A DNA stretch of 33,901 nt from a virus (Duplodnaviria; Heunggongvirae; Uroviricota; Caudoviricetes): the IMG/VR virus record IMGVR_UViG_2671180699_000001, positions 1-33,901 of that record. One strand, 5' to 3'. Under the pieces are notes generated by a model. It searched no databases and was not told the DNA's origin. It was given only the letters and a program-made list of their open reading frames with translations. Every line of letters starts with the position of its first letter. Position 1 is the stretch's first letter. Below are positions 28,140 through 28,867 of the stretch, in pieces. Position numbers and translations under genes: made by a program.

Positions 28140-28529
28140 ATGATGTTTCTGAAACAGGGCACGTTTAATTATGAAAAGCAGTCCGTGGTGCTCAGTGAGC
28201 TGTCCGGGCTGCAGAGAATTGAATATCTGGCGTTTGTTCAGCAGCGAACGGCAAAGTTTGATGCCGAAGAGGGAGAACTGCCGGAGGCTGAACGACAGAT
28301 TGCTTTTCTGCGGATGGGGATGGATATCAATGCCTGGCTGGTTTCCCGCTCACTGTGGAATGCGGAACAGTCTCAGGATGTTGAGACGCTTTGCGCATCC
28401 GTTATTACAACATGGTCGTATGATGCCCTGGGAGCGGGGGCGGAGATGGTTCTGTCGCTGAGCGGTATGGGAGCCATTGAGAATGCCGGGGATTTGGAGC
28501 ATGAGGTGCTGACGCCGGAAAAGTCCTGA
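28140..28529 (+). CDS. G: Tail assembly chaperone G
   Basis: MFLK…SVVLSELSGLQRIEYLA… resembles lambda gpG. Confidence 0.85.
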   Translation: MMFLKQGTFNYEKQSVVLSELSGLQRIEYLAFVQQRTAKFDAEEGELPEAERQIAFLRMGMDINAWLVSRSLWNAEQSQDVETLCASVITTWSYDALGAGAEMVLSLSGMGAIENAGDLEHEVLTPEKS

Positions 28530-28537
28530 CGCGGGAA

Positions 28538-28867
28538 ATGCAGTTTGTCATGCGGCTTGCCCGGGAGTTCAGGCGGGCAGACTGGCGGCGGATGCTGTCG
28601 GAAATGTCGGCCACTGAGCTTGGTGAGTGGGGCGATTATTTCCGGATGCAGAGCTTCAGTGATGTGTGGATGGATGCGCAGTTTGCCTCGCTGAAGGCAT
28701 TGATCGTGAGAATGGTGTCCGGCAGCAGTGATGCTGCGGTGGCTGATTTCAGCCTTTTACCGGAAGAGAACGGGATACCGGAGCGAACGGACGAAGAACT
28801 GATGCATCTTGGGGAAGGTATTTCCGGAGGTGTGCGTTATGGACCAGATAGCCAACCTGGTCATTGA
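28538..28867 (+). CDS. T: Tail assembly protein T; -1 frame relative to G, open from about 28505, presumably made as G-T fusion by programmed frameshift
   Basis: Frame relationship to G read directly; conserved G-T arrangement of lambda-like tails. Confidence 0.7.
   Translation: MQFVMRLAREFRRADWRRMLSEMSATELGEWGDYFRMQSFSDVWMDAQFASLKALIVRMVSGSSDAAVADFSLLPEENGIPERTDEELMHLGEGISGGVRYGPDSQPGH

What the first reader, a model, noticed from the sequence alone, without database searches (positions are those of the whole stretch)
28505..28538. G-T programmed frameshift window with a non-canonical slippery sequence
The T frame (-1 relative to G) is open for only about 22 nt before the G stop. The only A-rich candidate slip site there is G-GAA-AAG (in CCGGAAAAGTCC), not the canonical lambda G-GGA-AAG. 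Either frameshifting uses a non-standard heptamer here or efficiency differs.
Basis: seen in the sequence. Interest (0 to 1): 0.45.

Follow-up and report, generated by a model that had tools for sequence, protein, structure and literature searches.

The report
Phage tail-chaperone frameshift site, near-cognate heptamer
This is the lambda-type G/T tail-assembly-chaperone frameshift site of a common E. coli prophage; its G_GAA_AAG slip sequence differs by one base from lambda's textbook G_GGA_AAG, but it is real, strictly conserved, and is the usual form of this site in enterobacterial phages, so it is a mildly interesting variant and not an anomaly.

Summary
G (28143-28529, Phage_TAC_2) ends at TGA 28527-28529. 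The -1 (T, Phage_tail_T) frame opens at 28505, so the overlap is 22 nt. Its only in-frame re-pairing site is A_AAG, inside the heptamer G_GAA_AAG (28517-28523).

It is not a sequencing error or a decayed site. The junction is present in 1827 of 5426 complete E. coli genomes and in isolated phages (mEp460 and Ayreon were checked directly).

The site is positionally orthologous to lambda's G_GGA_AAG. Among 291 related loci, 267 carry GGAAAAG and 21 carry GGGAAAG. In 27 lineages that each differ by more than 8%, all seven bases are invariant, although the G tail just upstream is almost random. This includes the first G, a G-frame wobble base that is never read in the T frame (27/27, against at most 14/27 at other wobble columns). 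T-frame protein conservation starts right after the heptamer. The overlap windows of all GGAAAAG lineages intersect over only 13 nt.

Best explanation: low-level -1 programmed frameshifting makes a G-T fusion. It most likely works by dual-tRNA slippage, with tRNA-Lys moving AAG to AAA and tRNA-Glu moving GAA to GGA with a central G.U pair.

No conserved downstream RNA structure was found. The upstream SD-like GAGG is lineage-specific. Efficiency was not measured.

This is a known kind of system and of modest interest.

The parts
28143..28529 (+). Gene G, the tail assembly chaperone (128 aa, MFLK...TPEKS*). An alternative start at ATG 28140 adds one Met.
   Evidence: Pfam Phage_TAC_2, E = 1.8e-39. 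RefSeq starts G at the position equivalent to 28143 and mEp460 at 28140. GGAG at 28133-28136 lies 6 nt before 28143 (read from the sequence).
28517..28523 (+). Slip site G_GAA_AAG. In the 0 frame, GAA (Glu) is the P-site codon and AAG (Lys) the A-site codon. In the -1 frame these read GGA and AAA.
   Evidence: It is the only in-frame A-site re-pairing motif in the overlap. It is invariant in 27 divergent lineages and present in 267 of 291 related loci. It aligns with lambda's G_GGA_AAG.
28505..28526 (+). The 22-nt window in which both the G frame and the T (-1) frame are open.
   Evidence: It is bounded by the T-frame TGA at 28502-28504 and the G stop at 28527-28529.
28527..28529 (+). G stop codon TGA, one codon after the slip site.
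   Evidence: Across lineages the stop lies 0, 1 or 5 codons after the heptamer.
28523..28867 (+). T-frame part of the predicted G-T fusion: G28523 is read again, giving VLTREMQFVMRLAREF...GPDSQPGH, with the stop at 28865-28867. The predicted GT fusion is 28143..28523 joined to 28523..28867, 241 aa.
   Evidence: Pfam Phage_tail_T, E = 5e-15. T-frame amino-acid identity is 0.67 over the first 19 codons after the heptamer, with no stops in any of 33 lineages. The fusion alignment is A1.
28538..28540 (+). The ATG used by annotators as the start of a separate T protein. It is probably not a real start.
   Evidence: PGAP and mEp460 annotate T from this ATG. At this codon the other lineages have CTG, CTT, CGC and similar (alignment columns 42-44). 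The only SD-like bases (GGGA) lie about 1 nt upstream (sequence).
28503..28508 (+). SD-like GAGGTG. There are 10 nt between the end of GAGG and the heptamer. It is a possible lineage-specific stimulator.
   Evidence: Anti-SD duplex scan: only 12 of 27 lineages have a duplex of -4.5 kcal/mol or better at this distance. The conserved GA at -14/-13 is a Glu codon with a free wobble base, so the SD-like character is not conserved.
27333..28082 (+). Major tail tube protein V (with a C-terminal Big_2 domain). Upstream context.
   Evidence: Pfam Phage_TTP_12, E = 2.7e-66, and Big_2.
28839..31904 (+). Tape measure protein H. Downstream context. Its start overlaps the end of T by 29 nt.
   Evidence: Pfam TMP_2, Tape_meas_lam_C and TMP_4. 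The RefSeq start is equivalent to 28839.

Best explanation
A small fraction of ribosomes translating the tail-assembly-chaperone gene G shift back one base on G_GAA_AAG (28517-28523) and continue in the T frame. This produces a 241-aa G-T fusion (...LTPEK|VLTREMQF...) alongside the abundant 128-aa G. It parallels lambda, where gpG and gpGT together chaperone the tape measure protein H and recruit the tail tube protein V.

Most likely mechanism: dual-tRNA slippage. The A-site tRNA-Lys (anticodon mnm5s2UUU) moves from AAG to the better-matched AAA. The P-site tRNA-Glu (anticodon mnm5s2UUC) moves from GAA to GGA, keeping G:C at codon position 1 and A:U at position 3, with a G.U pair in the middle.

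Because the P-site re-pairing is only near-cognate and no conserved stimulatory RNA structure exists, efficiency is expected to be low, probably below lambda's few percent. That would suit a product needed in small amounts.

What is shown:
- the gene identities and gene order;
- orthology of the site with lambda's;
- invariance of the heptamer, including its synonymous bases;
- the switch of coding constraint at the heptamer.

What is inferred:
- that the fusion protein is made;
- the tRNA geometry (about 0.55 for dual slippage against about 0.3 for single-tRNA slippage);
- the efficiency.
For: 1. Lambda-type module Z-U-V-G-T-H-M, with Pfam Phage_TAC_2 and Phage_tail_T on the two frames.
2. 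T is in the -1 frame with a 22-nt overlap.
3. The GT fusion alignment places lambda SAGK|VF against TPEK|VL, with the junction Lys invariant.
4. Survey results: 27 of 33 lineages that differ by more than 8%, and 267 of 291 loci, carry in-frame GGAAAAG. No locus has a non-G base at heptamer position 1.
5. That first G is the wobble base of a variable codon (CCG 10, GCG 9, CTG 5, TTG, GTG, ACG). It is G in 27/27, against at most 14/27 in 19 neighbouring wobble columns and a background G3 frequency of 0.285. It is not translated in the T frame.
6. The overlap windows of the GGAAAAG lineages intersect only at -6 to +6.
7. The upstream G tail has 37% nt and 16% aa identity. The T frame downstream has 67% aa identity, codon-position periodicity and no stops.
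8. The same junction occurs in the isolated phages mEp460 and Ayreon and in 1827 E. coli genomes.
9. GGG and GGA forms interchange at least three times on the GT tree.
10. Literature: A_AAG is the most shift-prone tetramer in E. coli (PMC4066793). NNA_AAG and G_GA-type intermediate heptamers are recognised classes (PMC5009743). In the frameshifting free-energy model, a first-position P-site A.U-to-G.U change costs 5.1 kJ/mol, and the A-site wobble change from G to A against mnm5s2U gains 2.9 kJ/mol (PMC6787027).
Against: There is no direct evidence for the fusion protein. No deposited protein corresponds to the 241-aa product, and all checked annotations list G and T as separate genes.

In a reconstituted E. 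coli system, G_GAA_AAG gave mainly 0-frame product and served as the 'less slippery' control (PMC6924986). Tetramer motifs without a stimulator are barely above background in vivo (0.147% against 0.112%; PMC4066793).

No conserved downstream structure was found: the RNAalifold consensus is -1.4 kcal/mol with no covariation, and the window's own hairpin pairs in only 46.8% of cells, no better than the controls. It is therefore unclear what raises efficiency to a useful level.

Two lineages use G_GCA_AAA, where the P-site tRNA could keep only the first base pair. This shows that good P-site re-pairing is not strictly required in this family.
Confidence: 0.8

Rival explanations
1. A -1 frameshift occurs at the same place, but only tRNA-Lys slips, on the A_AAG tetramer (or NNA_AAG hexamer). 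It does so either in the A site or in the P site after translocation. tRNA-Glu does not re-pair, and the invariant first G is conserved for another reason, such as E-site or P-site codon context. The product is identical (...EK|VL...).
For: A_AAG alone supports -1 frameshifting in E. coli, reaching 5.6% with a pseudoknot (PMC4066793). Natural CGA_AAG sites exist in B. subtilis cdd and IS1222 (PMC5009743). The authors of PMC6924986 describe the central G.U as a second-position mismatch with a non-cognate codon. The G_GCA_AAA lineages cannot re-pair the P-site tRNA well.
Against: Heptamer position 1 is G in 291 of 291 loci across at least six different preceding codons, at a position that is synonymous in G and untranslated in T. 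A pure tetramer or hexamer model does not predict this. Known tetramer sites rely on strong downstream structures, and none is conserved here.
Confidence: 0.28
2. T is made as a separate 109-aa protein, as annotated, by initiation or termination-reinitiation at ATG 28538, 9 nt after the G stop. No frameshift is needed.
For: PGAP, mEp460 and cdtI-type annotations all call T from this ATG. The G stop and the ATG are close enough for translational coupling.
Against: The ATG is specific to this sub-clade. Gifsy-1, Fels-1, lambda and most other lineages have CTG, CTT, CGC and similar at that codon. T-frame residues upstream of it (K-V/A-L-x-x-E) are conserved, and T-frame constraint starts right after the heptamer. 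The heptamer's synonymous sites would have no reason to be invariant. The SD-like bases are about 1 nt from the ATG. From my own knowledge of Levin et al. 1993, not re-read here: in lambda, T sequences are made only as the GT fusion.
Confidence: 0.07
3. The site is a lesion: a G-to-A mutation of an ancestral GGGAAAG in a decaying prophage, or a sequencing error, so that GT is no longer made.
For: It differs from lambda's heptamer by a single transition, and many E. coli prophages are defective.
Against: The heptamer is identical in isolated phages (mEp460, Ayreon), in 1275 complete-genome records, and in 27 divergent lineages from more than 15 genera. On the GT tree, GGAAAAG is the widespread state and GGGAAAG the scattered one.
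Confidence: 0.02
4. The frame change happens at the RNA level: RNA polymerase slips on the A4 run and makes transcripts one A shorter.
For: A short homopolymeric A run is present.
Against: Four A's is far below the run length of about 7 or more residues at which productive transcriptional slippage is documented (general knowledge; the topic is reviewed in PMC5009743). The invariance of the flanking GG and of the final G fits codon-anticodon re-pairing, not polymerase slippage.
Confidence: 0.02

Closest known systems
Bacteriophage lambda G / G-T -1 programmed frameshift (Levin, Hendrix and Casjens 1993; Xu, Hendrix and Duda 2004, 2013, 2014, as cited in PMC5009743)
   Same: The protein families are the same (Phage_TAC_2 and Phage_tail_T), as are the gene order V-G-T-H, the -1 direction and the position of the slip site in the protein alignment (junction Lys invariant). 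There is no conserved downstream structure. The A-site codon and shift are the same (AAG to AAA).
   Different: The P-site codon is GAA (Glu) instead of GGA (Gly), so the heptamer is G_GAA_AAG and not X_XXY_YYZ. The G stop is 1 codon after the site instead of 5. The overlap is 22 nt instead of 61 nt.
NNA_AAG hexanucleotide / A_AAG tetramer -1 sites (B. subtilis cdd A_CGA_AAG, IS1222 G_CGA_AAG, IS3; Licznar et al. 2003 as summarised in PMC5009743)
   Same: The shift-prone element is tRNA-Lys re-pairing from AAG to AAA, with a 5' codon ending in A whose tRNA cannot re-pair cognately. Output is low.
   Different: Those sites depend on strong downstream hairpins or pseudoknots, and none is conserved here. 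Here the base before the 5' codon is invariant, which points to a heptameric requirement. GAA re-pairs on GGA better than CGA re-pairs on its -1 codon.
Intermediate heptamers with X_XX = G_GA (for example G_GAU_UUU-type sites of insect-specific flaviviruses, dianthoviruses, umbraviruses and mesoniviruses; PMC5009743 section 31)
   Same: The P-site geometry is the same: a GAN codon re-pairs on GGA with a central purine-pyrimidine non-Watson-Crick pair.
   Different: Those are eukaryotic ribosomes, with U_UUN A-site codons and strong 3' RNA stimulators.
E. coli dnaX A_AAA_AAG with an upstream SD-like element and a downstream stem-loop
   Same: AAG is in the A site. In this window, an SD-like GAGG lies 10 nt upstream of the heptamer, within the 6-17 nt range reported as stimulatory (PMC4066793).
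   Different: The SD-like element is not conserved across lineages (12 of 27). There is no stem-loop. The P-site codon is not slippery. Frameshifting here extends the protein instead of truncating it.
PRFect's non-canonical tail-chaperone slippery motifs ('twofour', 'fivetwo') in actinobacteriophages (PMC10885494)
   Same: These are computationally catalogued XXYYYY-type motifs in tail assembly chaperone overlaps. The authors explicitly suggest that the GAA-reading tRNA can re-bind GGA if G:U pairing is allowed.
   Different: Hosts and protein families differ. No per-site conservation analysis was reported, and G_GAA_AAG in enterobacterial lambda-type G/T genes is not discussed in the text or the supplement held.

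Membership tests
Tail assembly chaperone G/GT -1 programmed ribosomal frameshift (lambda type) | Two overlapping ORFs lie between the major tail protein gene and the tape measure gene, with the second in the -1 frame. | tested here: met
   V 27333-28082, G 28143-28529, T frame 28505-28867, H from 28839. T is -1 relative to G.
Tail assembly chaperone G/GT -1 programmed ribosomal frameshift (lambda type) | The two parts are homologous to gpG and gpT. | tested here: met
   Phage_TAC_2 at 1.8e-39 and Phage_tail_T at 5.1e-15. The predicted fusion is 35% identical to lambda GT across the alignment.
Tail assembly chaperone G/GT -1 programmed ribosomal frameshift (lambda type) | A conserved slip-prone sequence lies inside the overlap, at the point where coding constraint changes frame. 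| tested here: met
   The heptamer is invariant in 27 lineages. The overlap windows intersect at -6 to +6. The frame switch falls at the heptamer.
Tail assembly chaperone G/GT -1 programmed ribosomal frameshift (lambda type) | The downstream ORF has no conserved independent start. | tested here: met
   ATG 28538 is not conserved (alignment columns 42-44 of A2). T-frame conservation begins upstream of it.
Tail assembly chaperone G/GT -1 programmed ribosomal frameshift (lambda type) | A G-T fusion protein is made at a low ratio to G and is needed for tail assembly. | not testable with these tools
   This needs a reporter assay, proteomics or phage genetics. No fused product is on record in the protein database.
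Canonical X_XXY_YYZ simultaneous-slippage heptamer | The P-site codon XXY re-pairs on XXX, so only the wobble pair changes. | tested here: not met
   Bases 1-3 of the heptamer are GGA, not XXX. GAA moving to GGA changes the middle pair from A:U to G.U.
Canonical X_XXY_YYZ simultaneous-slippage heptamer | The A-site codon YYZ re-pairs on YYY. | tested here: met
   A_AAG moves to AAA.
A_AAG tetramer / NNA_AAG hexamer single-tRNA slippage sites (cdd, IS1222, IS3) | An in-frame A_AAG is preceded by a codon ending in A. | tested here: met
   GAA_AAG at 28518-28523.
A_AAG tetramer / NNA_AAG hexamer single-tRNA slippage sites (cdd, IS1222, IS3) | The site depends on a strong downstream hairpin or pseudoknot. 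| tested here: not met
   No consensus structure and no covariation. The local hairpin has z-scores of -1.6 and -0.8 and is not conserved. Rfam finds nothing.
A_AAG tetramer / NNA_AAG hexamer single-tRNA slippage sites (cdd, IS1222, IS3) | The base 5' of the hexamer is free to vary. | tested here: not met
   That base is G in 291 of 291 loci, although it is a synonymous position.
dnaX-type stimulation by an upstream SD-like sequence | A conserved SD-like sequence lies about 6-17 nt 5' of the heptamer. | tested here: inconclusive
   The window has GAGGTG with a 10-nt spacing. Only 12 of 27 lineages have a comparable anti-SD duplex, and the conserved bases form a Glu codon with a free wobble base.

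The most novel reading that the evidence does not exclude
G_GAA_AAG behaves as nearly non-slippery in a purified E. coli translation system. Even so, it may be the ancestral and positively maintained shift site of the lambda-type G/T chaperone genes across Enterobacterales. If so, either these phages need a much lower GT:G ratio than lambda, or an unrecognised non-RNA-structure stimulator acts here. One candidate is the conserved nascent-peptide motif E-[PA]-[VL]-[TS]-[PAL]-E-K. It occupies the peptidyl-transferase-proximal part of the exit tunnel at the moment of the shift and is conserved at the amino-acid level, not the nucleotide level. Another is the nearby stop codon.
Probability: 0.15. 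Interest if true: 0.6.

Novelty: new member of a known kind. Interest (0 to 1): 0.3.

Why it matters
There are three practical points.

- Annotation: RefSeq/PGAP and the phage records checked annotate G and T of this very common prophage family as two separate genes. They start T at a non-conserved ATG and record no G-T fusion. The correct product is a join at 28523. Motif-based frameshift finders restricted to X_XXY_YYZ will miss it. About a third of complete E. coli genomes are affected.

- Mechanism: the family is a natural experiment of 27 or more independent lineages. It shows that a P-site GAA-to-GGA shift (central G.U) is tolerated, and that the first base of the heptamer is selected for, in bacterial -1 frameshifting without a structured stimulator. 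Mechanistic work has so far used this heptamer only as a negative-type control.

- Assembly biology: lambda's GT:G ratio matters for tail assembly. Lineages that switch between GGA and GGG heptamers offer a handle on how much that ratio can vary.

None of this overturns current understanding.

Tried and rejected
- Downstream stimulatory RNA structure. Folding 28524-28620 and 28524-28575 gave z-scores of -1.6 and -0.8. RNAalifold on 33 lineages gave no structure and no covariation. The window's own hairpin, tested on the alignment, was no better than shuffled or slid controls. Rejected as a conserved feature.
- Rfam scan of 28300-28800. It returned only a chance lncRNA hit at E = 0.5.
- Upstream SD-like stimulator as a family feature. 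It is present in the window but in only 12 of 27 lineages. The conserved GA is a Glu codon. Kept only as a lineage-specific possibility.
- Rarity of the heptamer itself. It is not significant (9 copies against 5.5 expected).
- Literature. Licznar et al. 2003 and Xu et al. 2004 are not held, so I could not check whether GAA_AAG was measured or whether Xu et al. list this heptamer. Two full-text searches for the bare 7-mer returned mostly primer noise. The tail-chaperone constructs tested by Antonov et al. 2013 carry G_GGA_AAG, not this heptamer. The PRFect supplement holds nothing on it. The Gifsy transcriptomics paper was irrelevant.
- Protein database search for a deposited GT product. It found only singleton deletion-fusion ORFs.
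- Structure prediction and fold search. Not used, because the protein identities were already unambiguous from Pfam.
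Full report
**1. What is at the coordinates**

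The window encodes a lambda-type tail module. Pfam assigns Minor_tail_Z (26351-26929), Phage_tail_U (26914-27327) and the tail tube protein V with a Big_2 domain (27333-28082). It then assigns Phage_TAC_2 (gpG, E = 1.8e-39) to the ORF ending at 28529, Phage_tail_T (E = 5.1e-15) to the -1 frame downstream, a 1021-aa tape measure protein (from 28839) and gpM (31904-32233).

Frame-by-frame translation shows the G frame ending ...CCG GAA AAG TCC TGA, with the stop at 28527-28529. The T frame is -1 relative to G. It has a TGA at 28502-28504 and is open from 28505 to its stop at 28865-28867.

Of the seven in-frame positions in the overlap, only one allows A-site re-pairing: A_AAG at 28520-28523. With the preceding bases the heptamer is G_GAA_AAG (28517-28523), not X_XXY_YYZ.

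**2. Is it more than chance, or an error?**

The 7-mer alone is not rare in the window (9 copies against 5.5 expected). An in-frame G_GAA_AAG within seven codon slots has an empirical probability of about 0.002 in this phage's structural genes, and an in-frame A_AAG about 0.04.

The 801-nt G-T region is 97.6-99.9% identical to isolated phages (phi458, Ayreon, mEp460, cdtI, Tritos and others). It occurs in 1846 of 5426 complete E. coli genomes. The 50-nt junction itself is identical in 1275 records and present in 1827 genomes. I verified the junction directly in mEp460 and Ayreon. So it is neither a sequencing error nor a lesion private to a dead prophage.

**3. Orthology with the lambda site**

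I built G-T fusion proteins by shifting at the heptamer for the window, Gifsy-1, Fels-1, Gifsy-2 and lambda. They align without gaps at the junction. Lambda ...SAGK|VFDGELSF aligns with ...TPEK|VLTREMQF, and the junction lysine is invariant. The window's G_GAA_AAG is therefore the positional counterpart of lambda's G_GGA_AAG and differs by one base (Gly codon GGA against Glu codon GAA).

**4. Comparative survey**

Loci were collected from one-genome-per-species bacterial contigs and from four scans of IMG/VR.

- Of 291 loci with a recognisable T motif, 267 have in-frame GGAAAAG, 21 GGGAAAG, 2 GGCAAAA and 1 GGGAAAA. None has a non-G base at heptamer position 1.
- Filtering to lineages less than 92% identical over 190 nt leaves 33 lineages. 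Of these, 27 carry G_GAA_AAG. They come from Escherichia, Salmonella, Citrobacter, Kosakonia, Leclercia, Kluyvera, Atlantibacter, Klebsiella, Enterobacter, Trabulsiella, Pluralibacter, Phytobacter, Sodalis, Symbiopectobacterium, Providencia and others.
- In those 27, all seven positions are invariant while the flanks vary.
- The first G is the wobble base of a variable codon (CCG 10, GCG 9, CTG 5, TTG 1, GTG 1, ACG 1). It is G in 27/27, whereas the 19 neighbouring upstream wobble columns reach at most 14/27, and the background G3 frequency is 0.285. This base is synonymous in G and is not translated in the T frame, so its conservation is a nucleotide-level constraint.
- The third base of GAA is never G.

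The G-frame stop lies 0, 1 or 5 codons after the heptamer, and the T-frame stop lies 3-66 nt before it. The overlap windows of the GGAAAAG lineages intersect only at -6 to +6 (set by Providencia heimbachae: tgaATCACTGGAAAAGtag). Family-wide they intersect at -3 to +6. The frame change must therefore happen on the heptamer.

**5. Coding constraint switches frame at the heptamer**

- Upstream: the 60 nt before the heptamer are almost unalignable (37% nt identity, 16% aa identity in the G frame). The T frame carries stops there in 97% of lineages.
- Downstream: the T frame has 46% aa identity over the first 9 codons and 67% over 19. Its per-codon-position entropy is 0.67/0.59/1.31. It has no stop in any lineage, while the G frame stops in all of them.

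The ATG at 28538, where PGAP and the mEp460 authors start a separate T protein, is not conserved. Other lineages have CTG, CTT, CGC and similar at that codon. This argues against independent initiation of T.

**6. Stimulators**

There is no conserved downstream RNA structure.

- RNAalifold on 33 lineages gives -1.4 kcal/mol with no covariation.
- The window's own hairpin immediately 3' of the heptamer has z-scores of -1.6 and -0.8. On the alignment it pairs in 46.8% of cells, no better than shuffled or slid controls.
- Rfam finds nothing.

Upstream, the window has GAGGTG at 28503-28508, with 10 nt between GAGG and the heptamer. That is within the 6-17 nt range used for stimulatory SD-like elements in PMC4066793. 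However, only 12 of 27 lineages have a comparable anti-SD duplex. The conserved GA at -14/-13 is a Glu codon whose wobble base and neighbouring wobble bases vary freely. So what is conserved is a short peptide motif, E-[PA]-[VL]-[TS]-[PAL]-[EG]-K (lambda: EPVSAGK), and not an RNA element.

**7. Mechanism**

Established knowledge, as read in the papers held:

- In E. coli the most shift-prone A-site motif is A_AAG. G_GGA_AAG is among the best heptamers. Tetramers without stimulators are barely above background (0.147% against 0.112%), and A_AAG reaches 5.6% with the IS3 pseudoknot (PMC4066793).
- NNA_AAG sites are used naturally in cdd and IS1222, and heptamers with X_XX = G_GA are a recognised intermediate class in eukaryotic viruses (PMC5009743).
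- In the thermodynamic model of PMC6787027, a first-position P-site A.U-to-G.U change costs 5.1 kJ/mol, and the A-site wobble change from G to A against mnm5s2U gains 2.9 kJ/mol.
- PMC6924986 used exactly AUG GAA AAG as the 'less slippery' control against G_GGA_AAG and saw mainly 0-frame product.
- PRFect (PMC10885494) proposed, from annotation alone, XXYYYY-type motifs and GAA-to-GGA re-binding through G:U in actinophage chaperone genes.

Inference for this site: tRNA-Lys moves from AAG to AAA, and tRNA-Glu (anticodon UUC) moves from GAA to GGA, keeping G:C and A:U at positions 1 and 3 with a central G.U. The invariance of the first G is what favours dual slippage over lysine-only slippage; I put these at about 0.55 and about 0.3. 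Efficiency is probably lower than lambda's, but it was not measured.

On a neighbour-joining tree of GT proteins, GGAAAAG is spread throughout. GGGAAAR appears in three separate places: Edwardsiella, lambda plus E. albertii, and one Providencia lineage. This suggests the two heptamers are functionally interchangeable and that lambda's canonical form is the derived minority. The tree has no support values, and phage mosaicism is a caveat.

**8. Rivals**

- Independent initiation or reinitiation of T at 28538. Disfavoured by sections 4 and 5.
- A decayed site or sequencing error. Refuted by sections 2 and 4.
- Transcriptional slippage on four A's. The run is too short, and the conserved flanking bases fit tRNA re-pairing.
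- Single-tRNA slippage. This remains a live alternative for the mechanistic detail. It gives the same protein product, so only mutagenesis of position 1 can separate the two.

**9. Known or new**

The G-T frameshift is a classic, and the Gifsy-1 and Gifsy-2 records already name T as part of a frameshift product. Non-canonical slip sites in tail chaperone genes are documented as a class. I found no accessible text that names G_GAA_AAG as a natural programmed site or reports its dominance in this family. However, Xu et al. 2004 and Licznar et al. 2003 could not be read, so prior description cannot be excluded.

No database protein corresponds to the fused product. The few ORFs carrying both domains are singleton in-frame deletions. 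RefSeq annotates two separate genes in all the genomes listed.

**Verdict**

This is a real, functional-looking member of a known kind of system. It has a near-cognate heptamer that is the family norm and not an exception. Interest is modest (0.3).

Noticed in passing
window 28103-28126: A strong intrinsic-terminator-like hairpin (GCCCCGG-TTAT-CCGGGGC followed by TTTTTT) sits in the 60-nt gap between the major tail gene V and G, inside the late operon. The mEp460 and Ayreon records annotate it as a terminator. It could lower transcription of G, T and H relative to V unless RNA polymerase is antiterminated.
   Followed up: partly
window 28476-28523 (G-frame codons upstream of the heptamer); alignment A2 columns 7-27: At the end of an otherwise hypervariable acidic G tail there is a short conserved peptide motif, E-[PA]-[VL]-[TS]-[PAL]-[EG]-K (EVLTPEK here, EPVSAGK in lambda). 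Its wobble bases vary freely, so the constraint is on the peptide. These residues would sit next to the peptidyl transferase centre when the shift occurs. Whether this reflects chaperone function or a nascent-peptide effect is unknown.
   Followed up: partly
L015 and L017 (Kluyvera, Ewingella), L045, L028 and L061 (Providencia): Further variants of the slip site exist. They are CTG_GCA_AAA_TAG (G_GCA_AAA, where the P-site tRNA can hardly re-pair), ATG_GGA_AAA_TAG, and CTG_GAA_AAG_TAG. In all of them the G stop codon immediately follows the heptamer, which suggests the stop codon helps the shift in these lineages.
   Followed up: partly
window 15266-15275 and 32601-32610; window 32611-33901: Two runs of 10 N. 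The second cuts the tail gene L (Phage_tail_L, truncated at profile position 91 of 206). After it, the sequence is unrelated and includes an ORF with an Alpha-amylase_C domain (32819-33901, running off the end). The window is therefore a scaffold or a join of separate pieces, not one continuous prophage.
   Followed up: partly
window 23442-25661: A single long ORF combines a ClpP-type protease domain and a major capsid protein domain (Phage_capsid_4). This looks like a prohead protease-capsid fusion. The listed TTG start is probably too far upstream.
   Followed up: no
L047-L059 (genome contigs): Phage lambda G-T DNA, or DNA nearly identical to it, turns up on short, low-coverage contigs. The assemblies are labelled Neobacillus, Oceanobacillus, Kitasatospora, Shewanella, Pseudomonas, Chromatium, Leeuwenhoekiella, Paenibacillus, Enterococcus and Tardiphaga. 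This is almost certainly lambda DNA contamination of those assemblies. Likewise, MAGs labelled Bacillota (L007) and Geobacteraceae (L040) carry enterobacterial prophage sequence.
   Followed up: no
P0001, P0002, P0003, P0019: Rare singleton database proteins carry both the G and the T domain in one ORF. Deletions of 8-29 residues around the junction put the two frames in register. They are either natural deletion mutants that make only GT or assembly errors.
   Followed up: partly
window 28140-28145: G has two adjacent ATG codons. The mEp460 authors start at the first and RefSeq at the second. Homologues all begin MFLK, and the GGAG at 28133-28136 is better spaced for the second ATG.
   Followed up: partly
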